A DNA stretch of 12,972 nt from assembly GCA_039810525.1 (NCBI GenBank), contig JBDHXE010000056.1:1-12972 (forward strand), in the 5' to 3' direction. The notes under the pieces were generated by a model. The model did not search any database. It was given only the letters and a program-made list of their open reading frames with translations, and was not told where the DNA came from. Origin of the DNA: Chlorobiota bacterium. GTDB taxonomy: Bacteria; Bacteroidota; Ignavibacteria; Kapaibacteriales; UBA2268. This document shows, piece by piece, positions 1-12,972 of this stretch (positions are counted from its first letter, which is position 1; each line of letters starts with the position of its first letter). The position numbers and the translations under genes were made by a program.

Positions 1-608
1 TCTTTATTGTCTGTTGATATATCACCCCAATTGCCCGATCTTATGATATATTTATTATCATTTGATATTTTTAAGTCGTAAGCACCCTTAATCATATCTA
101 TACGATTTATCAATTCACCTGAAATTGTATTGTAAACACTTATACCAGATGTATATACACTATTACCCCTTGTTGTTGCCAATAAACTTCCATCTTTATT
201 AAAGCATACATTTGTGCTTGGTTCAAATGTATTTATTAAGGATTTATTATCAACATCATAAACAAAAACACCACCATCAACAGGACTTGCTATTGCAATA
301 AAATTATTGATGCAATCTATATCCAAAATCTTATATCCTGTTTGCGGATATTCATAAACTAATTCACCCGTCTCTGCATCCCATAATCTTGGAACTCCGT
401 CATCACCACCAGAGGCAAGATACCTACCATCTGGTGTAAACTTCACTGCATTGATTGCATTGGGATAGGTAAATTTTGTCCATACGGTATCGGGTAGCTC
501 GTTTGTCTGTCCCCTACCCGTTTGCGTATTACAAATAAGCACTACTACAAGTGCGGCAAGAGTGAAGAGCACGCTGACTCTTCTGTTGTTTTGTTGGTTT
601 TTCAACAT
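1..608 (-). CDS. Partial secreted beta-propeller (WD40-like) protein. The N-terminal ~202 aa are in the window and the C-terminus runs off the left edge. It has a signal peptide that may be a lipoprotein signal.
   Basis: Hand translation of the reverse complement from the ATG at 606-608 to position 1 finds no stop. The N-terminus MLKNQQNNRRVSVLFTLAALVVVLICNTQ is positively charged then hydrophobic, with a Cys. Motifs such as LASGGDDGVPRLWDAETGE and GSLLATTRGNSVY resemble WD40 or beta-propeller blades. AGGAG lies 9 nt upstream of the ATG. Confidence 0.6.
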   Translation of the reverse strand, partial: MLKNQQNNRRVSVLFTLAALVVVLICNTQTGRGQTNELPDTVWTKFTYPNAINAVKFTPDGRYLASGGDDGVPRLWDAETGELVYEYPQTGYKILDIDCINNFIAIASPVDGGVFVYDVDNKSLINTFEPSTNVCFNKDGSLLATTRGNSVYTSGISVYNTISGELINRIDMIKGAYDLKISNDNKYIIRSGNWGDISTDNK

Positions 609-984: not shown

Positions 985-2271
985 TTATATCGATACCCTT
1001 CTCCATAGTTCAGAGCTAAATTTTGGGTCAATATACCCAGAATACTTTTCTAAATTTGGATAAAATTTTGTGAAGTTTTTTGCACTCATACGGGCATCTT
1101 TGGCTGGATAGACTCTACCCCCGGCATCTGCTACTATTTTATCACATATTTCTAATAAATCAAGAAGATTCTTCCCTATCATTTTAAAGTCAATAGCTAA
1201 TGTAATACCTTCCATTGGAAAGGACATTAGTCCGGGCGATGGAATATTACCAAAAGTCTTTAATACTGTCAAAAATGATGAATATCCCGATTTTGCAATT
1301 AATTTAAATATTTGATTCAAATTGTATAGCGAATTTTGCAATGGTATCACGAATTGATATTGTAGGAATCCTCTTTTGCCATATACCCTATTCCAGTTTA
1401 TAATCCCATCTAATGGATAGAAGAATGATTCAAAATGAGTAAATTGTTTTATATTTCTATGAAATTGTTTATTAAAATATAGATAATTGAAGGTTTTAAC
1501 AGTAAAAGGGTTAATAAAATCAAATTCGATAGGAAAATTCATTGCTTTTTTATCATTTGGTATATATTTTATCTGATGTTTTAGATCTGCAAAATTTCCT
1601 CTTGAATATATACCATAACCTAATTTATTGGTACTTACCCAAGAAACAGTGTAATCATAATCAAGTGATTGCTCATTAATTTCAAAGAACTCTTCAAAAG
1701 AAAAGAATTTAATAAATTCGGCATCAATTATTGGTCCCAGTGATTTGATAAGTTGTATTTCAGCATTTAATATTATACCAGTAAGCCCCAAACCTCCTAT
1801 TGTTGCAATAAATAAATCATTATTTTGAGTATTAGAACAGTGATAAATAATACCATCGCTCCTAAGAAGATCGAAAGATTTGATGTATTTACCAAAAGTT
1901 CCGTATTTATGGTGATTTTTACCGTGTACATCATTAGCAATAGCCCCACCTAATGTAATTAACTTAGTACCAGGTGTAACGGGTAAGAAGTAGCCTCGTG
2001 GTAGGAATGTATCAATAATTTCTTTGAGTGTTACTCCTGATTGAGCTTTTAATATACCACTATTATCATCGAATGCAATAAATTTATTTAAATTTGAGCA
2101 ATCTACCAATATATTATTAGAATTTAGGCAAGAATCTCCATAACTTTTTCCCAATCCATAAGGTAATATCTTTTTATGAATACTTGTAAAATCGAAATTA
2201 TAGTTATTTAATATTCTGATTTCTTGGTTATTTGGTATAGGATATTTTCCAAATGAATTATATTTTTTCAT
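985..2271 (-). CDS. FAD-dependent oxidoreductase of the DprE1 family (decaprenylphosphoryl-beta-D-ribose 2'-oxidase-like).
   Basis: 428 aa. Motifs [51 protein letters not shown] and [13 protein letters not shown] line up closely with mycobacterial DprE1 motifs [48 protein letters not shown] and GGRLYTAKDSR, recalled from memory. The start ATG overlaps the stop of the upstream gene (ATGA). Confidence 0.8.
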   Translation of the reverse strand: [428 protein letters not shown]

Positions 2272-3680
2272 ATTATACCTATTAGCATTATTATACCTAT
2301 CAATAATATGCTTAAATAACTATATTTATCCTTAATACTGAATACTATTGGGTCTTCATTCATCATAGATCTATCTGCCAAAACCCAAACTCTCATATTC
2401 CAATGTAAGAGAATTGGAATAATTAAATATAATATTTTAGGGTTAGAGTATAATTGAGAAATTGTATTGCTATTGATATATAGCACCATTACCAAAACAG
2501 ATATCATACTTGAGCATATACCCATTATTTGAACTATATTCATATCATCAGCTATATATGCTCTCCCAGAAAGTTTTTCATTTTTAGAATTTTTAAGTTC
2601 TGTAAATCTTTTCAGAGCGCCCATAGAAAAGAAAAAGAATAAGGCAAATGCCGCCAACCATTCAGAAATAATAAACCCGCTCGTAGCCGATCCAGCAATT
2701 ATTCTCATCGTATATAATAATGCAAGTGTAATTATATCAACTATATAAATTCTTTTAAGATATATTGAATATAAATATGTAGTAATAAGATATATAAGTA
2801 ATACAATTATAAAGGAAATATTGATGAAGACGCCAATCATAATGCCAATTGTCATCAATAGAATAGTATAAACAAAGGCATCGCTTATTCTGAAATTACC
2901 AGCAGCTAAGGGTCTATTCTTTTTAATTTTATGTTTTCTGTCGCTATTCAAATCCATTAAATCATTGAATATATATATAGATGAAGCCACAAAACTAAAA
3001 GATAAGAATGAAAGTAATAATTGAAAATAAATATTAAATTCAAGGCTATGAGCCAAAAGAGCAGGGAGGAATATTAGCAGATTTTTGACCCATTGGTATA
3101 TTCTAAGCTGTTTGAAAATAATTTTATACTTAGGAGTGTTTGTTCTGCCCCACGTCTCAGCTATATTAGTAATTTCTTTAGCTTTATTTATTAATATTGT
3201 GTTGTCGCTTACGATTAAAGCATTTTGTGCAAAGCTCCAAACTACCAAATCTTTATGACTATCTCCTATATAGTCGTAATTTTTGTCGCCAAATCTACCT
3301 TTTAAATATTCTGCTTTATATTTTGCTGAAAGATTGATTCCATCTTTTGAACCTATTGCTTCATCCAAAAAATTGAATTTTTCTTTATATTTGTCCGCAT
3401 AGTATTGCAAAGAAGCGGTTACTAATAGTATTGTTCTTCCTGACTTTTTTTCATTTATTAGAAAGTTTACAATTTCATCATTTAGAGGCATTGTATCAAT
3501 ATCTATTTGCACTCTATTAAACAATTGTTCTTTGAGGTATAATTTCCCTTTTATGAACCAAATTGGTATCATTAGTAAATAAATTGGATTTGATTTTATC
3601 AAAATGGCCATCGACTCGAACATCATATCCGATTTAATTAAAGTTCCGTCTAAATCTACGCATAGTGGTATATTGGTCAT
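2268..3680 (-). CDS. Bifunctional fusion. The N-terminal domain is a HAD-superfamily phosphatase. The C-terminal domain is a UbiA-family polyprenyl-phosphate phosphoribosyltransferase (decaprenyl-phosphate 5-phosphoribosyltransferase, Rv3806c-like).
   Basis: 470 aa. N-terminal HAD motifs are DLDGTL (motif I), LLVTAS (motif II) and K...GDSHKD (motifs III/IV). The C-terminal ~290 aa are multi-TM and carry the Asp-rich UbiA motif NDLMDLNSDRKH (compare Rv3806c NDVADVEADRAH). It is coupled by TAATG with glf upstream and ATGA with the DprE1-like gene downstream. Confidence 0.8.
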   Translation of the reverse strand: MTNIPLCVDLDGTLIKSDMMFESMAILIKSNPIYLLMIPIWFIKGKLYLKEQLFNRVQIDIDTMPLNDEIVNFLINEKKSGRTILLVTASLQYYADKYKEKFNFLDEAIGSKDGINLSAKYKAEYLKGRFGDKNYDYIGDSHKDLVVWSFAQNALIVSDNTILINKAKEITNIAETWGRTNTPKYKIIFKQLRIYQWVKNLLIFLPALLAHSLEFNIYFQLLLSFLSFSFVASSIYIFNDLMDLNSDRKHKIKKNRPLAAGNFRISDAFVYTILLMTIGIMIGVFINISFIIVLLIYLITTYLYSIYLKRIYIVDIITLALLYTMRIIAGSATSGFIISEWLAAFALFFFFSMGALKRFTELKNSKNEKLSGRAYIADDMNIVQIMGICSSMISVLVMVLYINSNTISQLYSNPKILYLIIPILLHWNMRVWVLADRSMMNEDPIVFSIKDKYSYLSILLIGIIMLIGII

Positions 3681-4807
3681 TATCTTATTTTAGCTATTCG
3701 TTTTTCAAATACTTGTAGAGCTATACCTACTATTTGATCCATATTATAATATTTATATTCTGCTAAACGCCCACAGAATATTACAGAATCACCTAATTGT
3801 TCAGCTTCTTGTTTGTATTTATTATACAATTCATTATTTTCTGCTTTTGGTATAGGATAGTAAGGTTCATTAATATTTTTAATGAATTTCTGAGGATATT
3901 CAAATGCTATTGAAGTCTTTCGGTGTTGCTGTTGGCTCAAATATTTAAATTCTGTAATTCTTGTATAGTCATAATTGTTAGGATAATTTAATTGCCCTAC
4001 CTCTTGATAATATTCTGTATCGATTGTTTCGAAAGCAAAACTTAAACTTCTATAAGGTAGCTCTCCATAGATATAATTAAAATATTCATCTATTGGACCT
4101 GTGAATATTAATTTATCAAAGTTTACCCCATCTTTAACATCATTATATTCTGCATTAAGCAATAAATGAATATTCTTATGATTTAAAATATTATTAAACA
4201 TAGCTGTGTAGCCATTTGTAGGTAGTCCTTGATATGTATCTTGAAAATAGCGGTCATCTTTACTAATATATACTGGTACTCTTGAAGATACAGAACTATC
4301 TAATTCTTCTGGTTTTACTCCCCACTGTTTAATATTATATCCATTGAATACATTCTTATAAATATAATTAGCAAGGAAATTGAGATCATCGTCTTTAACT
4401 TCTAACATTTTTAGAATCGGAATTTTTAATCCAAAGCCATAATTTTCAATCAATTTTTTTTCTAACTTATTTGCATATTTTGTAGAGAACAATTGCGGTA
4501 TACTATTAAGATTGAAAGGTATAGGTACATTTTTCCCTTCTATTACGGCTTTAACTTTATGGATATATGTATTCCAATTTGTAAATTGCGATAGATAATC
4601 CCATACTTTTTTTGAATAAGTATGTAGAATATGAGGTCCAAATTTATGGACTAATATGCCATCATCATTATAATAATCATACGCATTGCCAGCTATATGA
4701 TTCCTTCTATCCACTATGAGACATTTTTTGTCCAATTGTGTAGCTATTCTTTCTGCTAAAACAGCACCAGCATAACCTGCGCCAATTATTAAATAATCAT
4801 ATTTCAT
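3680..4807 (-). CDS. glf: UDP-galactopyranose mutase (UDP-Galp to UDP-Galf).
   Basis: 375 aa. The N-terminus MKYDYLIIGAGYAGAVLAERIA...RNHIAGNAY is a Rossmann FAD-binding fold. Matching regions include ...HKFGPHILHT, YFQDTYQGLPTNGYT, TGPIDEYFNYIYGELPYRSL and the C-terminal FCGRLAEYKYYNMDQ. The E. coli and Klebsiella Glf equivalents are GGRLAEYKYYDMHQ and YRSLKFE. Confidence 0.93.
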   Translation of the reverse strand: MKYDYLIIGAGYAGAVLAERIATQLDKKCLIVDRRNHIAGNAYDYYNDDGILVHKFGPHILHTYSKKVWDYLSQFTNWNTYIHKVKAVIEGKNVPIPFNLNSIPQLFSTKYANKLEKKLIENYGFGLKIPILKMLEVKDDDLNFLANYIYKNVFNGYNIKQWGVKPEELDSSVSSRVPVYISKDDRYFQDTYQGLPTNGYTAMFNNILNHKNIHLLLNAEYNDVKDGVNFDKLIFTGPIDEYFNYIYGELPYRSLSFAFETIDTEYYQEVGQLNYPNNYDYTRITEFKYLSQQQHRKTSIAFEYPQKFIKNINEPYYPIPKAENNELYNKYKQEAEQLGDSVIFCGRLAEYKYYNMDQIVGIALQVFEKRIAKIR

Positions 4808-6216
4808 TTTCTTATTATTGTTTTAATTTCATTTATATCTATAATTTTAAAAGCAAGTGATATACCAAAATATATTATAGAACTAAAAATAATACTAAAT
4901 ATTGGGTTGATAGTATCTTTAAGGAAATAAAATGGTATAAATGATATTATAGTAATTGGTATAAATTTTAGTATTTCCAATAAATAGATTCTACTATGAG
5001 TATTTCTAAAAATATACATCATACTAATAAGTACACCAAACTCGCATAATATAGTGGCAAATGCAGAACCATACATTCCATATTTTGGTATCAAAATTAT
5101 ATTAAGTATAGCATTAATAATTAATCCTATAATATTAGCTTTTACTACTTTTTTCTCTTCTTTCCAAGAAATTAATGGAGTAAAATATATTGAAATCATA
5201 TATTGAATTAAAACAGTAAAAGCTAAATATTGTAATATTATATTAGAATTAGTATATTTATCTCCTAATAAATCGACAGCTAAATCTGCTAAGAAAAATA
5301 AATATCCAAAGGCTAAATATCCTACAAGTAATTGAAGTTTAGCAAATTTTGAAATTAATCTATCTCTATCTTCAAACGTTTTGCGTTGTGATATTTGAGG
5401 GAAAAATGCACCTTGTAATATTATTGATGGTAAAATTGCGAAGTAAATTACTTGATGTGCGGCACCATAGATACCTGTTTCAAAATCACCTCTCATTAAT
5501 CCTAATAATGTAATATCAATATTATTATATAGTGTGGATATTAGGAATATTAAGCCAATTGAGAAAGCTTCTTTAGAAATATTAATCCATAGTTTGAAAT
5601 CAAAATTAAATGAGAATTTATTATATCTACGGAAGTAATATATGTACATTACAATTGAATTAATTAGCATAGACAAGCTAATGATAATGACAGCTGTTGT
5701 CAAATCTTCACTACTTTTCACCAATAAGATAATACCAATAAAATTAAGTAGGTATATTCCAATCGTTCTAAAAGCTATTACTTCCATTTTCTCAATTGCT
5801 TGAAAAAACCAATTTAACATAATAGCATTGCTAAATAATGTAATACTATATATATATATAATGTGTTGATTATATGCTAATTCTGGTTTGTTTATAATCA
5901 GTATTTGCACTACAATGAATAGCAAAATAAAGGATATTAATGATATCGTGATTCTTATACTTGTTATCAAATCTACGTATTTTTTAATAAGTGATTTGTC
6001 TTTAGCAATTTCTCTGATACCTACTTGGTCGTAGCCCAATGCCACTAATATTAGGAAATATTGTACTAATGATTTAGCAAAATTCAGAATACCATTGCTT
6101 TCTGGACCAATTGTTCTTATAAGATAAATAGTATACACAAAAGCAAGTCCTTTGCTTGCAATTTCAGCTAAGGATAGAGAGAATATATTCTTAATTATAT
6201 TTTTGGCCACACTCAT
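4804..6216 (-). CDS. Wzx-like polysaccharide or oligosaccharide flippase of the MOP superfamily ('polysaccharide biosynthesis protein').
   Basis: 470 aa. Highly hydrophobic with about 12-14 predicted TM segments rich in I/L/F. The N-terminus ...LSLAEIASKGLAFVYTIYLIRTIGPESNGILNFAKSL is typical of Wzx and RfbX proteins. The start lies 4 nt after the GH57 stop, and the stop overlaps the glf start. Confidence 0.75.
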   Translation of the reverse strand: MSVAKNIIKNIFSLSLAEIASKGLAFVYTIYLIRTIGPESNGILNFAKSLVQYFLILVALGYDQVGIREIAKDKSLIKKYVDLITSIRITISLISFILLFIVVQILIINKPELAYNQHIIYIYSITLFSNAIMLNWFFQAIEKMEVIAFRTIGIYLLNFIGIILLVKSSEDLTTAVIIISLSMLINSIVMYIYYFRRYNKFSFNFDFKLWINISKEAFSIGLIFLISTLYNNIDITLLGLMRGDFETGIYGAAHQVIYFAILPSIILQGAFFPQISQRKTFEDRDRLISKFAKLQLLVGYLAFGYLFFLADLAVDLLGDKYTNSNIILQYLAFTVLIQYMISIYFTPLISWKEEKKVVKANIIGLIINAILNIILIPKYGMYGSAFATILCEFGVLISMMYIFRNTHSRIYLLEILKFIPITIISFIPFYFLKDTINPIFSIIFSSIIYFGISLAFKIIDINEIKTIIRK

Positions 6217-6220
6217 TTGA

Positions 6221-7948
6221 TTAAGAATATACTTCTCGCCAATCTTTTAAATTTAATTCTGGGAAAATTGAATTTCTCTTTTCAGTATCTTCTAAATACT
6301 TTAGTTCAGACTTATTAAAAGTATTATTATTAATATAATTTTCAAAAAAATCACATAATTTATTAAAATCAGAATGATGATAAGAAAATCGCATTTCTGA
6401 GTAGTCTTTTGCTGACTGTGTATATATTAGAAATTGCCAATCTGATGACTGTAATAGCATCAATTCTCTCAATGCTTGTTTCAATATTCTAATAGCCGTA
6501 TTATCTAAATTATCATTAAAGTATTTAGTGTATAAGTTATTAAATCTAAGTTCATCATTATAGATACACTCCCAAGTCCATTTATTCTCTTCGTTGCTCC
6601 ATACAGTATGATTATTATCAACTCCCCAAGAACCTTCTGGTATAGATATTACTTCTTTGGGTTGAATCTGTATATACTGTTCTGATGCTGTTACCATATT
6701 CAAATATGGTGAATGATATAATCCTCTGATTACAGCTCTTAGGAACTCTGGTCCTTCAAACCACCAATGCCCAAACAATTCTGTATCGAATGGGGTAACA
6801 ACAGTACTAAATTTGCCTGTATGATTATTATAATAATTCGAGGTATTTTCTAAATTATGAATAAAATGATTAGCTTGTTTGTCAATTTTGTCGTAAGTCC
6901 AATCGGGATGATACAAAGTTTTGTACATCATATCTGCTTTGCTATCTGTAACTCTCCAATAACGGTGCATAGAAGGAAAATGCTTTTTATGAAAATCTAA
7001 ATAATCTGGCTCGGCAGGATAACCAATTTGTCCACTCCATACCTGCATAGAAAGATCGTGATGACGTGTAAATATAGCCGCAGTACCATATTCTACTTTT
7101 TCAGAAGATGCTACTTCGTACATACAAAGTGGGTTCTTATCAAAATTCCAATTTTCAAATTGGAAATTAGGTGAATTGATGGATATAAAATTTTCCTTAA
7201 TATTATCATTAAATTTACCGAGTGGAATCGAGCGTTTTAATAAATCTTCATCAGTTACAAAATATTGTATGCCGTTAGCAGCAAGAATCTGTTCTACTCC
7301 ACTTCTTAATCTCTTACTATGAAATGGTTCTATTGGTATATAGGTTTGCCATTCATAAGATGGACGATAAGCACATTCAGGCAACCAAATACCTTTTGGA
7401 TATCTATTAAAGTATTTTTTATAATTTTTGACTGCTGTGCTAACTTGCAGATTAATGCTTTGGTCGTATCCTAACAAAGGGAAGTATCCATGAGTAGCTC
7501 CACAAGTCATTACTTCAATAGCACCTTTGTCTTGAAGAGTCTTCAATCCATTGATAATAGATGAATTATACTTTTTTAAAAAATCTTCTTTTTTATTAGT
7601 GTACCATTCTTCCCAGAATTGAGTTAGCCAAATATGATGCGGTTCATAACCCCAATTAGTAAAGTTTCTCCTATCTTCTTGAGCACCTTTAATTTTCTCA
7701 TCACAATACTCTACAAATATTTTTTTAAAATCTTTATGCTCTAATTGTTCGCATAGAATCGGAGATATATCCAATGTAGCTTTGGGTAAAATACCTTCGC
7801 TCAGACAATCGTTAAATATATTAAGTAGCGGAATATAGCACTCAGCAACTGCTTCGCTTAACCAATCTACACCATGAGGCCATTTACCATGGTGAAGCAC
7901 CCAAGGTAGATGTGTATGCAAAATTAAGACATAATTACCGGAATGCAT
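6221..7948 (-). CDS. Glycoside hydrolase family 57 protein, 1,4-alpha-glucan branching enzyme-like (GH57 catalytic domain plus C-terminal DUF1957-type region).
   Basis: The N-terminal motifs YVLILHTHLPWVLHHGKWPHG, IWLPECAYRP (candidate catalytic Glu) and TPFDTELFGHWWFEGPEFL are signatures of GH57 branching enzymes. The ORF track begins at the TTG at 7960. An ATG at 7946-7948, preceded by GGGAG with a 6-nt spacer, is the more likely start (protein MHSGNYVLILHTHLP...). Confidence 0.82.
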   Translation of the reverse strand: MHSGNYVLILHTHLPWVLHHGKWPHGVDWLSEAVAECYIPLLNIFNDCLSEGILPKATLDISPILCEQLEHKDFKKIFVEYCDEKIKGAQEDRRNFTNWGYEPHHIWLTQFWEEWYTNKKEDFLKKYNSSIINGLKTLQDKGAIEVMTCGATHGYFPLLGYDQSINLQVSTAVKNYKKYFNRYPKGIWLPECAYRPSYEWQTYIPIEPFHSKRLRSGVEQILAANGIQYFVTDEDLLKRSIPLGKFNDNIKENFISINSPNFQFENWNFDKNPLCMYEVASSEKVEYGTAAIFTRHHDLSMQVWSGQIGYPAEPDYLDFHKKHFPSMHRYWRVTDSKADMMYKTLYHPDWTYDKIDKQANHFIHNLENTSNYYNNHTGKFSTVVTPFDTELFGHWWFEGPEFLRAVIRGLYHSPYLNMVTASEQYIQIQPKEVISIPEGSWGVDNNHTVWSNEENKWTWECIYNDELRFNNLYTKYFNDNLDNTAIRILKQALRELMLLQSSDWQFLIYTQSAKDYSEMRFSYHHSDFNKLCDFFENYINNNTFNKSELKYLEDTEKRNSIFPELNLKDWREVYS

Positions 7949-7962
7949 AATTACTCCCAAAA

Positions 7963-8172: not shown

Positions 8173-9708
8173 TTATTTCGAACTGTCATCATTAGTTTTT
8201 TTAAAATTGCTAAGTATATCTACTCCTGTTGCTTTTTCTATAACTTCGTTGAGAGATATTACTGAGTTAGGCAATTGTGATATTACTTTATTCAATGGCG
8301 AACTGTCATTATTATTACCAGAATCTATTACAGTCATTTTATCAATTTTAACATCTTTTACCACATTGGTCAATTGGCTTATTATTTCTGGGAGCATATT
8401 TAGCATAAATACTTTATCGCCATTTCCTTGTGCTGATAGATATGCATCTATTTTTTTTCTTAAAACCTCTATGTGAGCTTCTCCATCAGCAATAATAGAT
8501 GCGGCTTCTCCTTTGGCTTCTAATTCTAATGCCTCTTTTTTGGCTTTTGCTGGTTCTATAACATCAGCCATTAATTTTTGTTTTTGCAATTCTATTCTTT
8601 GTCTTTCTAACTCTTGTTCATATTTTACTTTTGCTAATTGTCCAGCTACTTCAGCTTCTTTTTCTTTAACTATGGCTTGTTTCTCCAAATCAGCTTTTGT
8701 CATTCTGTAATTATTCTTCTCTATTTCAATAGTTTTGTCAGCGTTAGCTCGTGATATTTTTATTGATTTATCAGTATCAATTTGTGCATTCTGAATATTT
8801 TGTAGAGCAATTGCTTTCGCTTTTTCTGCTGTTTCGTGTGCTTGGGCATCTGCTTCTTCGGCTGCTGCTTTTTTGGTAGCTGTTGCAATCAAAATTTGCT
8901 GTTCGGATAGAATTTTTGCTCTTTCTATTTCTTGATTAGCTATAGCTTTTGCTTTCTCAATTTCTTGGTTCGAAATTGCTTTCGCTTTTTCGATTTCTTG
9001 ATTTGCATTAGCTTTTGCTTTTTCTGCTCTTTCCAAGGCAGTGGCCTCCGCTTCTTGTGCATCAGCCATCTTCTCAGCTTCTATTTTTTTGGCTCTTGAG
9101 ATCACTTCGGCAGTTTTGCCTCTACCAATTGAATTTAAATAGTCATTATCATCAGAAATATTCGTTATTTTCAAAGTATCTAATTGTAATCCAAGTTTAT
9201 TCAAATCCAAATCTGCTTCATCCATCAAAGTTTCAGCAAATTTCAATCTATCTTCATTTACTTCTTCTGGTGTAAGCGAAGCTAATACGCCTCGAAGATT
9301 ACCTTCGAGAGTATCTTTTGCAATTGCATGAATATCGCTTGCACTACGTGTTAGGAATCTTTCTACTGCATTACCAAACGAAGGTTCGGTAGATGCAATT
9401 TTAATATTGGCTATTGCTTCTACTTTAAGAGGGATACCACCTTTAGAGTAAGCATTTATTACTTCTAATTCTATTGGTATAGTCTCGAGCGACATACGTG
9501 TAGCTTTTTCTATAAGAGGCATTTTGATAGTTCTACCACCACGTATAGTTCTATAACCAATTTCTTCGCCGTTTGCTAACTTTCTTCTTCTACCAGATAA
9601 AATAATTACTTCATTTGGGTGCGCAATTAACAGCATTTTGCTAATCAAAGTAAATATTACAATCAACGACACAGCTCCTACACCTGCGAAAAACAAAATC
9701 ATTTCCAT
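8173..9708 (-). CDS. Flotillin (SPFH or Band-7 domain membrane-microdomain scaffold protein, FloT/YuaG type).
   Basis: 511 aa. It has an N-terminal TM helix, then an SPFH-like region (HPNEVIILSGRRR..., GGIPLKVEAIANIKI). A long Glu/Ala-rich coiled coil carries EA-type repeats (ANQEIEKAKAI x3). It sits directly downstream of an NfeD-like gene, as in B. subtilis yuaF-yuaG. AGGAGAAATT precedes the ATG. Confidence 0.88.
   Translation of the reverse strand: MEMILFFAGVGAVSLIVIFTLISKMLLIAHPNEVIILSGRRRKLANGEEIGYRTIRGGRTIKMPLIEKATRMSLETIPIELEVINAYSKGGIPLKVEAIANIKIASTEPSFGNAVERFLTRSASDIHAIAKDTLEGNLRGVLASLTPEEVNEDRLKFAETLMDEADLDLNKLGLQLDTLKITNISDDNDYLNSIGRGKTAEVISRAKKIEAEKMADAQEAEATALERAEKAKANANQEIEKAKAISNQEIEKAKAIANQEIERAKILSEQQILIATATKKAAAEEADAQAHETAEKAKAIALQNIQNAQIDTDKSIKISRANADKTIEIEKNNYRMTKADLEKQAIVKEKEAEVAGQLAKVKYEQELERQRIELQKQKLMADVIEPAKAKKEALELEAKGEAASIIADGEAHIEVLRKKIDAYLSAQGNGDKVFMLNMLPEIISQLTNVVKDVKIDKMTVIDSGNNNDSSPLNKVISQLPNSVISLNEVIEKATGVDILSNFKKTNDDSSK
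8905..9040 (-). repeat. In-frame 33-bp imperfect tandem repeat (about 3 copies) inside the flotillin coiled-coil region.
   Basis: Nucleotide units gcttttgctttctcaatttcttggttcgaaatt, gctttcgctttttcgatttcttgatttgcatt and agcttttgctttttctgctctttcc encode (A)NQEIEKAKAI, SNQEIEKAKAI and ANQEIERAKIL. Confidence 0.5.
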
Positions 9709-9726: not shown

Positions 9727-10344
9727 TTATAAATCGTATTTATCAACAATAGCTATATTATCATCAAATTCTATTAAAAGTATTTTGTCGCCTTTTCTTA
9801 GTTCTTCTATTTTGCTAATTGAACTTAGTTTTGCGATAATTTCTATAGTGGAGCCTGATGTTTCTATCAAAATCTTTCCTTTTCTATCTTTGCTTAAAGG
9901 TAATGTTACTATACCTTTTGAACCTATAAGCTCTGTATATTCTTTTGTTTTCCCAGATTCACTTTTTTTTAGGTAATTCATAAACGAATATCCAAAAATT
10001 GATGCAAATAGTCCTATAATTATAGAACTAAACAATTTAGTAGAATCACTAAAACTAAAAAGATCTCCCAGAGTACCACTTAATCCAAAAAACGTTATAA
10101 AATAGAGAATGTTTCTAAAACTAAAAATTTTACCAATTTCATATAACTTAGTTATATCACTGCTACCGATTGATTTTGCTGATATATCTTTATTGATTTC
10201 AATATGATGTGAAGTATCTAAATGATCTAAGTCTATATGATGAACATCTACTGTATCTACATCGTGTGCAGTACCTCCTGTAAATAATGAAAATAATACT
10301 AAAATACCGCCAAATATCAAGCAAGCTAAGTAAATAATTGACAT
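9727..10344 (-). CDS. NfeD-like membrane protein (short YuaF-type form), the partner of flotillin.
   Basis: 205 aa. Hydrophobic N-terminal TM segments are followed by a C-terminal OB-fold-like segment (GKILIETSGSTIEIIAKLSSISKIEELRKGDKILLIEFDDNIAIV). It lies 18 nt upstream of the flotillin start. Between the TM helices there is an unusual His/Asp-rich stretch, AHDVDTVDVHHIDLDHLDTSHH. Confidence 0.72.
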   Translation of the reverse strand: MSIIYLACLIFGGILVLFSLFTGGTAHDVDTVDVHHIDLDHLDTSHHIEINKDISAKSIGSSDITKLYEIGKIFSFRNILYFITFFGLSGTLGDLFSFSDSTKLFSSIIIGLFASIFGYSFMNYLKKSESGKTKEYTELIGSKGIVTLPLSKDRKGKILIETSGSTIEIIAKLSSISKIEELRKGDKILLIEFDDNIAIVDKYDL

Positions 10345-10450: not shown

Positions 10451-11449
10451 ATGTATATTGAAAATGAGCTGTTTTATCAGAAAAGGGTATTTCAATTAAT
10501 ATCTGACCCAACTAAAGTATATAACACTAAGTCTGGCAAAAGATTACAATTCTTATCGCCCGGCAAGCTAAGTTCTATAGGACCCGATTTTAAGGATATT
10601 GCATTATTAATAAATGGATATTTAATAATTGGAGATTGTGAATTCCATATCAAAAGTAGTGATTGGATAGATCATAGACATGAATTGGATAGTAAGTATA
10701 GTGATGTAATTCTTCATATTGTATTAGAAGATATTATAGATATTAAAGGAAATTTTGAGACTTTGATTATTAGTGAAGACAAGTTAGAAGCAATTAATAC
10801 TACTCAAACTATTGAGACTAACAATTTCACCGAGATTGAAGAGATACAAAACTTCGCCTTATTAAGGCTATTACGCAAAACTTCTAATGCCAAAAAGTTA
10901 TTAAATAATAATTCGATTATTGATTCACTTCAAATACTTTCGCAAGAATTTATAACGAGATACGAGCATAGGCGGCATAGGCCAAAATATACATCAAGTA
11001 AGCTAAGTGAGATTATAGATGCTATTTCTAATTCTACAATTGTTAATTATTTATATGATATTGCTAACAACGAGAACATATCTGTATCTGATATAATGCA
11101 AAGTTTGATTAAAAATAAGATTTATGATGAAGGACCACATTTACGTAGGGAATTAGTTTTGAATGCAGTGATACCTCTACTATTGGCTTTGGCAAATGAT
11201 AATAATAGGATCAATTTATTTGTATGGTATTGGTCTACTCCAGCACTGAATAATTACGGTATATTAAATAGAAAATTCCCTAACAATCCTCAAAATTTCT
11301 TATGGCAGCAGCAAGGTATGTTAGAATATATCGCAGAGTATGGCAATAGATCTAACCTAATTGCCGAATCTTTCCGTGAATATGGCTTTTTGGAAGTATT
11401 GAGTTTTTATAAAAACGGAAGATTACCTTTAGAATTCTTTGAGAATTAA
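10451..11449 (+). CDS. DUF2851-family protein of unknown function.
   Basis: 332 aa. The N-terminal region ...RLQFLSPGKLSSIGPDFKDIALLINGYLIIGDCEFHIKSSDWIDHRHELDSKYSDVILHIVLED matches the conserved DUF2851 core (G-D-hEIH-hKSSDW-xHgH-x-D-x-YnNVILHVV) as I remember it. The family is mainly in Bacteroidota and the wider FCB group. Confidence 0.75.
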   Translation: MYIENELFYQKRVFQLISDPTKVYNTKSGKRLQFLSPGKLSSIGPDFKDIALLINGYLIIGDCEFHIKSSDWIDHRHELDSKYSDVILHIVLEDIIDIKGNFETLIISEDKLEAINTTQTIETNNFTEIEEIQNFALLRLLRKTSNAKKLLNNNSIIDSLQILSQEFITRYEHRRHRPKYTSSKLSEIIDAISNSTIVNYLYDIANNENISVSDIMQSLIKNKIYDEGPHLRRELVLNAVIPLLLALANDNNRINLFVWYWSTPALNNYGILNRKFPNNPQNFLWQQQGMLEYIAEYGNRSNLIAESFREYGFLEVLSFYKNGRLPLEFFEN

Positions 11450-12426
11450 CTTATTAGTCTTGATATTTCTTCTGCTACCCTTAATGCTTCTGATGCCTCA
11501 TTAGCATTTACTGCTATTGGAGTATTATCATTAATAGCAGACACAAAGGCAAATTGTTCTTCTGCAATAGCATTAATTTTATCAACATTGGGTTTCTCAA
11601 AATATATATTTCGATTTTTGATACCAGTCTCTATAGATCCAAGCATCATAGCAGGCACACCTTCGGTTGAATGCAGCCCTTCGTCGTATATTTTATATAC
11701 TTCTACATTATGCTCTTGAAAATCTAATGATATATATGCATCTTTCTGGAATATCCTCATTTTCCTCATAGGATTAGCAGTGATACGCGATGCTGTGATA
11801 TTAGCTATAAGCCCAGTCTCAAATTTAATTCTAGCATTTGCAATATCAAAGCTATCACTAATTACAGCTACTCCACTCGCGTCTATTTTTTCAATTTTGG
11901 ACTGTGCTAACCAAAGAATAATATCTATATCATGAATCATCAAATCATGAATTACTGATACATCAGTAGCACGTGGTTTGAATTGACTGAGTCTATGTGC
12001 TTCAATAAACATTGGCTTATCAATATAGGGTCTTATTGCTTTGATTACTGGATTGAATCTTTCTACATGCCCTACTTGAATTAACACATTATTTTTTTTG
12101 GCAGATTCTATTAAGTCTAATGATTCGTTATAAGTATTGGTAATAGGCTTTTCTATCAGGCAATGTTTCCCATTCTCTATAAATTTCTTTGCTATTGCCC
12201 AATGATTGATAGTAGGAACTGCAATTGTAGCAGCATCAGAATTTTCAATTGCTTCTTCGATAGAATGATATGATTTGCAGTTATATTCATTAGCTATTTT
12301 GTCTGCTTTTGCAGTATCAATATCGTATATTCCTATTAATTCTACATTAGGATTTGATGACCATAGTTTAGTATGTATGCTACCAAGATGTCCAATTCCA
12401 ACTACTATTACCTTTAATTTTTTCAT
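11446..12426 (-). CDS. Gfo/Idh/MocA-family NAD(P)-dependent oxidoreductase.
   Basis: 326 aa. It has an N-terminal Rossmann motif KVIVVGIGHLGSIHT and the family-diagnostic EKP motif (CLIEKPIT). Its stop codon overlaps the DUF2851 stop (TTAA at 11446-11449, convergent). Confidence 0.85.
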   Translation of the reverse strand: MKKLKVIVVGIGHLGSIHTKLWSSNPNVELIGIYDIDTAKADKIANEYNCKSYHSIEEAIENSDAATIAVPTINHWAIAKKFIENGKHCLIEKPITNTYNESLDLIESAKKNNVLIQVGHVERFNPVIKAIRPYIDKPMFIEAHRLSQFKPRATDVSVIHDLMIHDIDIILWLAQSKIEKIDASGVAVISDSFDIANARIKFETGLIANITASRITANPMRKMRIFQKDAYISLDFQEHNVEVYKIYDEGLHSTEGVPAMMLGSIETGIKNRNIYFEKPNVDKINAIAEEQFAFVSAINDNTPIAVNANEASEALRVAEEISRLIS

Positions 12427-12473: not shown

Positions 12474-12972
12474 TTAAGATTTTGGATGTGCTTTTTTATA
12501 TTGTTCTTTTAATCGCTCTATAGATATATGAGTATAAATTTGTGTAGTATTGAGAGATGAATGTCCTAACATTTCGCCTACACTCCTTATATCGGCTCCA
12601 TTATCTAATAAATGAGTAGCAAAAGTATGCCTAAGAGTATGCGGACTCTTTTTGCTGACTTCAGTTTTGCCAATCATTCTGTGTTTTACAATTTTATAAG
12701 CCATTGCTGGACTAATTCTTTTAATTTTTTTATCTATAAACAAAGGGTATTCTTTTTCACTTTTAAACAGAGACATAATTATTTTTTTATATGCTATATA
12801 CTTTTCTATAAAAGTGTTTGTAATCGGTACTAATCTTTCTTTATTACCTTTACCTAATATCTTGATTAATTTCTCGTTTAAATTGATACTATTAATATTA
12901 AGCTGGAGAGCTTCACTAATTCTCAGCCCTGACCCATATAGCAGCTCTAAAAGTAAAGCATCTCTCCAATCC
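12474..12972 (-). CDS. Partial tyrosine site-specific recombinase of the XerC/XerD family. The C-terminal catalytic domain is present and the N-terminus runs off the right edge.
   Basis: The ORF track lists only the 100 aa from an internal Met. Hand translation upstream of it stays open to 12972 (...DWRDALLLELLYGSGLRISEALQLNINSINLNEKLIKILGKGNKERLVPI...). Catalytic signatures are GLRISE (Arg I), HTLRHTFATHLL (His-x-x-Arg), LGHSSLNTTQIYTH (His, Tyr) and the XerD-like tail ERLKEQYKKAHPK. Confidence 0.8.
   Translation of the reverse strand, partial: DWRDALLLELLYGSGLRISEALQLNINSINLNEKLIKILGKGNKERLVPITNTFIEKYIAYKKIIMSLFKSEKEYPLFIDKKIKRISPAMAYKIVKHRMIGKTEVSKKSPHTLRHTFATHLLDNGADIRSVGEMLGHSSLNTTQIYTHISIERLKEQYKKAHPKS

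What the first reader, a model, noticed from the sequence alone, without database searches (positions are those of the whole stretch)
2268..3680. HAD phosphatase fused to the DPPR-synthase-like UbiA prenyltransferase, so two consecutive pathway steps sit on one polypeptide
In mycobacteria, DPPR made by UbiA (Rv3806c) is dephosphorylated by a separate PAP2-type phosphatase (Rv3807c). Here the soluble N-terminal ~170 aa carry all four HAD motifs (DLDGTL, LVTAS, K, GDSHKD). The C-terminal ~290 aa form an integral-membrane UbiA domain with NDLMDLNSDRKH.

This would be a non-orthologous replacement of the PAP2 phosphatase by a HAD domain, physically tethered to the transferase. It implies substrate channelling from PRPP plus polyprenyl-P, through polyprenyl-P-ribose-5-P, to polyprenyl-P-ribose. 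The Rosetta-stone fusion also independently supports a functional link between the two activities.
Basis: partly seen in the sequence, partly recalled or inferred. Interest (0 to 1): 0.65.

Follow-up and report, generated by a model that had tools for sequence, protein, structure and literature searches.

The report
Two-step lipid-ribose synthase, known fusion
The gene really does encode a phosphatase fused to a membrane enzyme that puts ribose phosphate on a lipid carrier, but this two-in-one enzyme is a widespread, curated family whose prototype was characterised biochemically in 2024, so it is an ordinary new member.

Summary
Window 2268..3680 (minus strand) is one uninterrupted 470-aa ORF. 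It has an N-terminal HAD phosphatase domain (residues 1-178; D9-x-D11-x-T13, T88, K122, G139-D-x-x-x-D144). It has a C-terminal 9-helix UbiA domain (188-470; N239-D-x-x-D-x-x-x-D-R-x-H, K357-R-x-x-E361) whose closest solved relative is M. tuberculosis Rv3806c.

It is not new. The whole protein matches the curated NCBIfam model NF006088/PRK08238 end to end (544 bits, cut-off 351). Thousands of collinear homologues exist, in at least 588 species genomes across many phyla. Kelly et al. (PNAS 2024, PMC11127046) showed biochemically that Citrobacter youngae ORF15, with the same layout and motif spacing, makes polyprenyl-P-ribofuranose; its HAD nucleophile mutant accumulates the 5-phosphate intermediate.

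The gene sits in a translationally coupled operon: Wzx-like flippase, Glf, fusion, DprE1-like oxidase. Unlike 41 of 67 related loci, it has no DprE2 reductase nearby, so the final sugar (probably D-arabinofuranose) is uncertain.

Substrate channelling is untested. Verdict: correct reading, new member of a known kind, low interest.

The parts
2268..3680 (-). Complete ORF, 470 aa plus stop: two-domain polyprenyl-phosphate 5-phosphoribosyltransferase / phosphoribose 5-phosphatase (PRP-PPPRS type)
   Evidence: ORF. (NF006088 full length, 544 bits against cut-off 351). (thousands of collinear homologues). (AF2 pLDDT 92.1, pTM 0.87).
3147..3680 (-). N-terminal HAD phosphatase domain, residues 1-178, with a helical C1-type cap (about residues 19-79)
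3642..3656 (-). HAD motif I, D9-L-D11-G-T13 (nucleophile Asp9, acid/base Asp11)
   Evidence: D9 and D11 are invariant in 31/31 aligned proteins and in 80/80 species genomes. It corresponds to ORF15 D18.
3411..3425 (-). HAD motif II, L-V-T88-A-S
   Evidence: T88 is T or S in 80/80 genomes.
3315..3317 (-). HAD motif III, Lys122
   Evidence: Invariant in 31/31 and 80/80.
3249..3266 (-). HAD motif IV, G139-D140-S-H-K-D144
   Evidence: D144 is invariant. Position 140 is D or N (Asn in 55/80 genomes).
3120..3146 (-). Short basic linker, residues 179-187 (RTNTPKYKI), between the HAD domain and TM1
2271..3119 (-). C-terminal UbiA-fold domain with 9 transmembrane helices, residues 188-470, of the DPPR-synthase (Rv3806c) type
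2910..2966 (-). First catalytic motif, N239-D240-x-x-D243-x-x-x-D247-R-x-H...R256-P257, in cytoplasmic loop 2-3
   Evidence: Invariant. Equivalent to ORF15 N247/D248/D251/D255, which were shown to be needed for activity.
2598..2612 (-). Second conserved motif, K357-R358-x-x-E361, at the cytoplasmic end of TM6
   Evidence: Invariant or nearly so. Equivalent to ORF15 R366/E369.
985..2271 (-). DprE1-like FAD-dependent polyprenyl-P-ribose 2'-oxidase. Its start overlaps the fusion's stop (ATGA).
   Evidence: NF053785, E 3.5e-98, 329.7 bits, below cut-off 500. (M. smegmatis DprE1 4aut, E 1.4e-68). (overlap).
3680..4807 (-). UDP-galactopyranose mutase (Glf). Its stop overlaps the fusion's start by 1 nt.
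   Evidence: TIGR00031, 426 bits against cut-off 304..
4804..6216 (-). Wzx-like MOP-family flippase (Polysacc_synt), first gene of the conserved Wzx-Glf-fusion-DprE1 block
   Evidence: The block is conserved in L002, L006 and L041.

Best explanation
The ORF encodes a bifunctional inner-membrane enzyme of the PRP-PPPRS type.

Proposed mechanism:
1. The C-terminal UbiA-fold domain takes PRPP from the cytoplasm and transfers ribose-5-phosphate to a polyprenyl phosphate (most likely undecaprenyl-P). Catalysis is Mg2+-dependent and uses the N239/D240/D243/D247 loop.
2. The N-terminal HAD domain is tethered by a 9-residue linker to TM1, on the same (cytoplasmic) face. It removes the 5-phosphate through an aspartyl-phosphate intermediate on Asp9, giving polyprenyl-P-beta-D-ribofuranose.
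3. The translationally coupled DprE1-like oxidase then oxidises C2'.
4. A reductase not encoded in the window would complete epimerisation to polyprenyl-P-D-arabinofuranose. This would be a periplasmic donor for a GT-C glycosyltransferase encoded elsewhere.

What is shown here: ORF integrity, domain identities, conservation of catalytic residues, cytoplasmic topology of both active sites, and operon context.
What is shown in the literature for a collinear homologue: both enzyme activities.
What is inferred: the lipid acceptor, the final sugar, and any channelling between the two sites.
For: -: intact 470-aa ORF.
- end-to-end match to NF006088/PRK08238 (query 2-469 to model 10-480 of 482; 544 bits against cut-off 351). 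The next-best models are decaprenyl-phosphate phosphoribosyltransferase.
- D9, D11, K122, D144, N239, D240, D243, D247, K357 and R358 are invariant in 31 diverse proteins and in 80 species genomes. Mean pairwise identity is 0.43 for the HAD domain and 0.49 for the UbiA domain, so both are under similar constraint.
- 14 Lys/Arg in the even-numbered loops and 0 in the odd-numbered loops. This gives an N-in topology with the HAD domain and both catalytic loops in the cytoplasm.
- 41 of 67 assessable related loci are arranged fusion, then DprE1, then DprE2.
- (PMC11127046): ORF15 has the same order of domains and the same motif spacing (ORF15 N247/D248/D251/D255/R366/E369 against N239/D240/D243/D247/R358/E361 here, a constant offset of 8). 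It makes farnesyl-P-Ribf, and its D18A mutant accumulates farnesyl-P-Ribf-5-P.
- split and free-standing forms of the HAD domain exist. One (L086) lies next to a separate UbiA gene.
Against: - No assay exists for this protein.
- The ORF15 sequence itself could not be retrieved, so homology to the characterised prototype rests on the shared family model, motif spacing and enterobacterial intermediates, not on a direct alignment.
- Pfam HAD and TIGR01488 scores for this sequence are below their curated cut-offs. The HAD profile finds no solved structure by sequence better than E 0.005.
- No DprE2, no GT-C and no small four-helix flippase lie in the 13-kb window, so the downstream pathway is incomplete here.
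- ORF15 D18A retained some product, so the HAD step may be partly redundant with cellular phosphatases.
Confidence: 0.85

Rival explanations
1. The UbiA domain is a polyprenyl-P phosphoribosyltransferase, but the HAD domain does a different job. It might recycle polyprenyl diphosphate to the monophosphate acceptor, hydrolyse PRPP or ribose-5-P, or act only as a structural or regulatory module.
For: The HAD domain is very divergent from all solved HADs by sequence. Close free-standing relatives occur with no UbiA gene nearby (L085, L087). The first Asp of motif IV is Asn in 55/80 genomes. ORF15 D18A still gave some dephosphorylated product.
Against: All catalytic residues are invariant across phyla. 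The ORF15 nucleophile mutant accumulates exactly the lipid-ribose-5-P intermediate. No other candidate phosphatase (PAP2 or otherwise) is present in the operon here or in the compact five-gene operons of L006 and L041.
Confidence: 0.08
2. It is an aromatic prenyltransferase (4-hydroxybenzoate polyprenyltransferase) fused to a phosphoserine phosphatase, as JGI's automatic annotation names many relatives.
For: Source names. Generic Pfam UbiA and SerB-like fold hits.
Against: The ubiA and heme-O-synthase NCBIfam models score 23-35 bits against cut-offs of 180-285. The best sequence and structure matches are to the phosphoribosyltransferase Rv3806c. The second motif is KRxxE, as in Rv3806c and ORF15, rather than a second Asp-rich DxxxD. 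The usual neighbours are DprE1 and DprE2.
Confidence: 0.02
3. The fusion is an artefact: two adjacent genes joined by a sequencing or assembly error.
For: Split forms do exist in nature (L086).
Against: The identical protein is recorded from two contigs. In 80 species genomes a single HSP without stops covers both domains. A curated 482-position family model covers both domains. AF2 packs the two domains with pTM 0.87.
Confidence: 0.01

Closest known systems
Citrobacter youngae O1 ORF15 (AWU66546.1), the two-domain PRP-PPPRS polyprenyl phosphoribose synthase (Kelly et al., PNAS 2024, PMC11127046)
   Different: ORF15 sits with a small four-helix EmrE/ArnE-like flippase and a GT136 GT-C, and delivers Ribf (or Xylf through an SDR epimerase). 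The window gene sits with a 470-aa Wzx-like flippase, Glf and a DprE1-like oxidase, with no GT-C nearby.
Mycobacterium tuberculosis Rv3806c (DPPR synthase) plus Rv3807c (PAP2-type phosphatase), followed by DprE1/DprE2
   Same: Same chemistry: PRPP plus polyprenyl-P gives polyprenyl-P-ribose-5-P, then polyprenyl-P-ribose. Same fold and motifs in the transferase. A DprE1 homologue follows.
   Different: In mycobacteria the phosphatase is a separate PAP2 protein; here it is a fused HAD domain. DprE2 is absent from the window. The lipid is probably undecaprenyl rather than decaprenyl (inference). The DprE1-like protein has Ala in place of the benzothiazinone-binding Cys.
Pseudomonas aeruginosa PA7/Pa5196 D-Araf pilin glycosylation cluster (PsPA7_6245-6249), and the P. 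syringae B728a PPPRS with a C-terminal PRP domain
   Same: A Gram-negative polyprenyl-P-Araf pathway with an Rv3806c homologue and DprE1/DprE2. The P. syringae protein is also a transferase-phosphatase fusion.
   Different: P. aeruginosa keeps a separate phosphatase. The P. syringae fusion is described as having the opposite domain order.
gPRT-PRP ribofuranosyltransferases (soluble, PRPP-dependent; Thermobacillus composti structure, cited in PMC11194591)
   Same: A phosphoribosyl transfer step coupled on one polypeptide to a HAD phosphoribose phosphatase.
   Different: Their transferase domain is a soluble gPRT acting directly on a glycan, not a membrane UbiA enzyme acting on a lipid carrier. 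Relatedness of the two HAD domains was not demonstrable here.

Membership tests
PRP-PPPRS two-domain polyprenyl phosphoribose synthases (NCBIfam NF006088 / PRK08238; prototype C. youngae ORF15) | Full-length match to the curated two-domain family model, above its cut-off | tested here: met
   query 2-469 to model 10-480 of 482, 544 bits against cut-off 351, E 2.9e-163.
PRP-PPPRS two-domain polyprenyl phosphoribose synthases (NCBIfam NF006088 / PRK08238; prototype C. youngae ORF15) | N-terminal HAD domain with the nucleophile Asp in loop I and motifs II-IV | tested here: met
PRP-PPPRS two-domain polyprenyl phosphoribose synthases (NCBIfam NF006088 / PRK08238; prototype C. youngae ORF15) | C-terminal 9-TM UbiA fold closest to DPPRS, with N-D-x-x-D-x-x-x-D and R-x-x-E motifs in cytoplasmic loops | tested here: met
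   (8j8j is the top hit). (motifs lie in K/R-rich loops).
PRP-PPPRS two-domain polyprenyl phosphoribose synthases (NCBIfam NF006088 / PRK08238; prototype C. youngae ORF15) | Direct sequence similarity to ORF15 (AWU66546.1) over both domains | not testable with these tools
   The ORF15 sequence was not returned by any search. Only indirect support is available: identical motif spacing taken from the paper's residue numbers, and an enterobacterial member (Erwinia, L076) with the ORF15-like three-gene layout.
PRP-PPPRS two-domain polyprenyl phosphoribose synthases (NCBIfam NF006088 / PRK08238; prototype C. youngae ORF15) | Phosphoribosyl transfer to polyprenyl-P, and 5-dephosphorylation of the product | not testable with these tools
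   This needs a membrane assay with PRPP and farnesyl-P or undecaprenyl-P.
Three-component pentofuranose side-chain system (PPPRS, small flippase, GT-C/GT136) | An adjacent small four-helix EmrE/ArnE-like flippase and a GT-C glycosyltransferase | tested here: not met
   the window has no such genes. A 470-aa Polysacc_synt/Wzx-like protein is present instead. The Erwinia locus L076 does have the canonical layout.
Mycobacterial-type decaprenyl-P-arabinose pathway (Rv3806c, Rv3807c, DprE1, DprE2) | A PAP2-type phosphatase (Rv3807c homologue) | tested here: not met
   No PAP2 domain is found in any window ORF. The HAD domain takes its place.
Mycobacterial-type decaprenyl-P-arabinose pathway (Rv3806c, Rv3807c, DprE1, DprE2) | A DprE1 oxidase homologue | tested here: met
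   (E 3.5e-98, below the equivalog cut-off). (E 1.4e-68 to solved DprE1, residues 35-426).
Mycobacterial-type decaprenyl-P-arabinose pathway (Rv3806c, Rv3807c, DprE1, DprE2) | A DprE2 reductase (SDR) homologue next to DprE1 | tested here: not met
   tblastn with a related DprE2 finds nothing in the window (best E 3.7). It may be encoded elsewhere in the genome; this was not testable.
HAD superfamily, subfamily IB (SerB-like, C1 cap) | Curated profile scores | tested here: inconclusive
   PF12710 scores 24.3 against 27. TIGR01488 scores 22.7 against 45. Most homologues pass PF12710. Fold similarity is clear.
Aromatic UbiA prenyltransferases (4-hydroxybenzoate polyprenyltransferase, heme O synthase) | Equivalog model scores | tested here: not met
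   TIGR01474 scores 30.5 against 275, TIGR01473 scores 31.4 against 210, TIGR01475 scores 35.1 against 181.

The most novel reading that the evidence does not exclude
In this Kapabacteria-like lineage the PRP-PPPRS works in a variant pathway. It is coupled to Glf and a large Wzx-type flippase, and to a DprE1-like oxidase with no DprE2. Either the lipid-linked 2'-keto-pentofuranose is itself used, or it is reduced by a non-orthologous enzyme. The result would feed an arabinogalactan-like (Galf plus Araf) or otherwise unknown pentofuranose surface glycan in the Bacteroidota-Chlorobiota group.
Probability: 0.1. Interest if true: 0.45.

Novelty: new member of a known kind. Interest (0 to 1): 0.15.

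Why it matters
This adds no new principle. The fused phosphatase-transferase has been published and is widespread.

Its practical value is in annotation. Relatives are labelled only 'UbiA family prenyltransferase', or wrongly '4-hydroxybenzoate polyprenyltransferase/phosphoserine phosphatase'. They can be read as polyprenyl-phosphoribose synthases that mark pentofuranose (Ribf/Araf/Xylf) glycan decoration.

The window extends this marker to an uncultured Kapabacteria-like bacterium. There it is linked to Glf, which suggests a furanose-rich surface glycan. The missing DprE2 is a small open point about how the epimerisation is completed.

Tried and rejected
- ORF15 sequence. I tried to obtain C. 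youngae ORF15 for a direct alignment through three routes: a protein search with the window protein, a genome scan, and a protein search seeded with the enterobacterial relative from Erwinia typographi. Yersinia, Pantoea and Sodalis members came up, but Citrobacter was not in the rows listed. The paper's supplement holds no sequences.
- Promoter and terminator scan of the operon: counts were not above the shuffled expectation, so uninformative.
- Rfam scan of the window: no hits.
- DprE2 remnant in the window or in the 375-nt spacer after the DprE1-like gene: none.
- Gfo/Idh/MocA oxidoreductase (11446-12426) as a substitute reductase. It is syntenic in L002, but it is separated from the operon by genes on the other strand and is absent from other relatives' loci. 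I left this as speculation.
- Literature search for noeC/Rv3806c: no paper found.
Full report
**1. The observation**

The window carries a single open reading frame at 2268..3680 on the minus strand. It is 470 codons long, starts with ATG and has no internal stop.

Its start overlaps the stop of the upstream gene by one base (TAATG). Its stop overlaps the start of the downstream gene by four bases (ATGA).

- DLDGT, residues 9-13
- LVTAS, residues 86-90
- K122
- GDSHKD, residues 139-144
- NDLMDLNSDRKH, from residue 239
- a second conserved element, KRFTE, residues 357-361

**2. Domain identities**

Pfam gives UbiA for residues 204-433 (E 2.7e-24). It gives the HAD model PF12710 for residues 9-145 at 24.3 bits, just under its 27-bit cut-off.

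NCBIfam is decisive. The curated equivalog NF006088 (PRK08238.1, 482 positions) matches residues 2-469 to model positions 10-480. The score is 544 bits against a cut-off of 351. The two-domain architecture is therefore itself a curated family.

The next-best models are the three decaprenyl-phosphate phosphoribosyltransferase models (E 1e-39 to 5e-29, C-terminal part only). Aromatic prenyltransferase and heme-O-synthase models score about ten times below their cut-offs.

By sequence, the only solved relatives are Rv3806c (8j8j, E 4.8e-21, aligned from residue 188) and more distant UbiA proteins.

**3. Structure**

An AlphaFold2 model built on a 31-sequence alignment is confident (mean pLDDT 92.1, pTM 0.87). 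It shows a Rossmann-like core with a helical cap, followed by nine long helices.

| Search | C-terminal domain | N-terminal domain |
|---|---|---|
| Foldseek vs PDB | Rv3806c top hit; TM-score 0.84 normalised to target; E 2.8e-9 | phosphoserine-phosphatase-type HADs; E 3e-4 |

By sequence alone the HAD domain is far from every solved HAD (best E 0.005). It belongs to a divergent subfamily.

**4. Conservation and topology**

In 31 diverse homologues the following residues are invariant: D9, D11, T13, K122, D144, N239, D240, D243, D247, R248, K357, R358 and E361. T88 is T or S.

In 80 species-level genomes from many phyla, one tblastn HSP without any stop spans both domains. The same residues are conserved. 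The one exception is position 140, which is Asn in 55 genomes and Asp in 25.

Mean pairwise identity is 0.43 in the HAD domain and 0.49 in the UbiA domain. The phosphatase module is therefore under comparable constraint.

I counted Lys and Arg in the loops between the modelled helices. The loops on the N-terminal side hold 14 (7, 2, 3 and 2). The loops on the other side hold 0. This gives a clear N-in topology. The HAD domain, the NDxxDxxxD loop and the KRxxE region all lie in the cytoplasm, where PRPP is available.

**5. How common it is**

The protein search returned 2704 proteins at E <= 1e-5. The best 120 are all about 470-490 aa, and most carry both PF01040 and PF12710. A second search seeded from an enterobacterial member returned 7030 proteins at E <= 1e-20.

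The lineages include:
- Kapabacteria, Ignavibacteria, Chlorobiota and Bacteroidota
- Acidobacteriota, Verrucomicrobiota, Planctomycetota and Nitrospirota
- Desulfobacterota, Myxococcota, KSB1 and Peribacteria
- Alpha-, Beta-, Gamma- and Zetaproteobacteria

JGI's automatic annotation already names many of these '4-hydroxybenzoate polyprenyltransferase/phosphoserine phosphatase'. That name recognises the two-domain build but gets the chemistry wrong.

A profile of the HAD domain alone also finds many free-standing proteins of about 190 aa. One lies next to a separate UbiA gene in a polysaccharide cluster (L086). Others have no UbiA neighbour (L085 and L087). Both split and fused forms therefore exist.

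**6. What is already published**

Kelly, Duong, Nothof, Lowary and Whitfield (PNAS 2024, PMC11127046) characterised Citrobacter youngae O1 ORF15. It has an N-terminal HAD 'phosphoribose phosphatase' (PRP) domain and a C-terminal UbiA-type 'polyprenyl phosphoribose synthase' (PPPRS).

Their results:
- Membranes with ORF15, PRPP and farnesyl-P made farnesyl-P-ribofuranose, confirmed by MS and NMR.
- N247A, D248A, D251A and D255A abolished or nearly abolished activity.
- The HAD nucleophile mutant D18A accumulated farnesyl-P-ribose-5-phosphate.

The authors state that Rv3807c is unrelated to the HAD-family PRPs. They note that Araf-containing glycans have DprE1/DprE2 homologues beside the PPPRS. 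They also report that ORF15-like systems are widespread. A PNAS commentary repeats this (PMC11194591).

The window protein's residues sit at a constant offset of 8 from ORF15's numbering:

| Window | ORF15 |
|---|---|
| N239 | N247 |
| D240 | D248 |
| D243 | D251 |
| D247 | D255 |
| R358 | R366 |
| E361 | E369 |

D9 corresponds to D18. I could not retrieve the ORF15 sequence, so this correspondence is indirect.

An enterobacterial member, Erwinia typographi L076, supports it. That locus has the fusion followed by a 112-aa EamA/SMR-like protein and a 535-aa protein without Pfam hits. This matches the published three-component layout.

**7. Context in the window**

On the minus strand the order is:
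- GH57 branching-type enzyme, 6221-7960
- Wzx-like Polysacc_synt flippase, 4804-6216
- UDP-galactopyranose mutase (Glf), 3680-4807
- the fusion, 2268-3680
- DprE1-like FAD oxidase, 985-2271
- a 375-nt spacer
- an unrelated signal-peptide beta-propeller-like gene that runs off the window

The DprE1-like protein aligns with solved DprE1 over residues 35-426 (E 1.4e-68). It keeps the AKD lysine and has Ala at the benzothiazinone cysteine position.

Among 67 related genome loci with enough downstream sequence:

| Arrangement next to the fusion | Loci |
|---|---|
| DprE1 and DprE2 (usually fusion, DprE1, DprE2 in order) | 41 |
| Neither gene | 22 |
| DprE1 only | 3 |
| DprE2 only | 1 |

The nearest lineages with the same upstream genes are L006 (Ignavibacteria) and L041 (Chlorobiota). 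They carry Wzx-Glf-fusion-DprE1-DprE2 as a compact five-gene unit among housekeeping genes.

The window and its 57%-identical relative L002 lack DprE2. No remnant is detectable. No GT-C glycosyltransferase and no small four-helix flippase lie within the 13 kb.

**8. Most likely mechanism**

The UbiA domain transfers ribose-5-P from PRPP to a polyprenyl phosphate at the cytoplasmic face. The tethered HAD domain hydrolyses the 5-phosphate through Asp9. The product, polyprenyl-P-ribofuranose, is oxidised at C2' by the DprE1-like enzyme. An unlinked reductase probably completes epimerisation to polyprenyl-P-D-Araf. That donor would be flipped and used by a GT-C enzyme encoded elsewhere.

The two enzyme activities rest on homology to an assayed protein (confidence about 0.85). 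The identity of the lipid, the final sugar (Araf, roughly even odds or a little better) and the flippase assignment are inferences. Substrate channelling is plausible from the tethering and the shared cytoplasmic face, but it is untested.

**9. Rival readings**

I considered three: a HAD domain with another substrate or a non-catalytic role (about 0.08), an aromatic prenyltransferase (about 0.02), and an assembly artefact (about 0.01).

**10. Verdict**

The feature is a new member of a known, curated and biochemically characterised family, so the interest is low.

The only mildly unusual aspect is the operon variant: Glf and a Wzx-like flippase upstream, and a DprE1-like oxidase without DprE2.

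Noticed in passing
window 985-2271 (-), compared with L002, L006, L013, L041, L043, L064: The DprE1-like oxidase ends the operon with no DprE2 reductase anywhere in the window. By contrast, 41 of 67 related loci have fusion, DprE1 and DprE2 together, and the nearest lineages carry Wzx-Glf-fusion-DprE1-DprE2. A small minority of loci (L002, L013, L043, L064) share the DprE2-less layout.
   Followed up: partly
window 2268-2271, 3680, 4804-4807: Four consecutive genes (Wzx-like, Glf, fusion, DprE1-like) have overlapping stop and start codons (4 nt, 1 nt, 4 nt). This indicates translational coupling. The linkage of the Galf donor enzyme with a pentofuranose-lipid pathway recalls the two furanose donors of mycobacterial arabinogalactan.
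   Followed up: partly
window 3264-3266 (residue 140); loci L005-L084: The first acidic residue of HAD motif IV (GDxxxD) is Asn in 55 of 80 species genomes and Asp in the window. The second Asp (D144) is invariant.
   Followed up: no
L085 6001-6564, L086 4519-6573, L087 6001-6591: Free-standing proteins of about 190 aa are closely related to the fused HAD domain. One lies downstream of a separate 333-aa UbiA gene in a polysaccharide cluster (a split form). Two in Verrucomicrobiota have no UbiA neighbour.
   Followed up: partly
L076 9992-13346 (Erwinia typographi): The fusion is followed by a 112-aa EamA/SMR-like protein and a 535-aa protein with no Pfam hit. This looks like the published three-component (synthase, flippase, GT-C) layout. 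Close homologues occur in many Yersinia, Pantoea and Sodalis genomes.
   Followed up: partly
window 2088-2093 region of the DprE1-like gene (alignment): The DprE1-like protein has Ala where M. tuberculosis DprE1 has the Cys that is covalently modified by benzothiazinones. The conserved AKD lysine is retained.
   Followed up: no
window 8173-9708 (-) and 9727-10344 (-): A flotillin/Band_7 gene carries an internal short peptide repeat (AKAI[A/S]NQEIEK, several copies) and shows strong AT skew in this stretch. It is preceded by a 205-aa membrane protein with no Pfam hit, possibly NfeD-like.
   Followed up: no
window 1-608 (-) and 12474-12972 (-): Both window ends cut genes. At the left is a signal-peptide beta-propeller/WD40-like protein. 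At the right is a tyrosine recombinase (XerC/D-like; 298 aa in the longer contig L001). L001 also shows a 1520-aa T9SS Por_Secre_tail protein beyond the recombinase, consistent with a Bacteroidota-Chlorobiota-group host.
   Followed up: no
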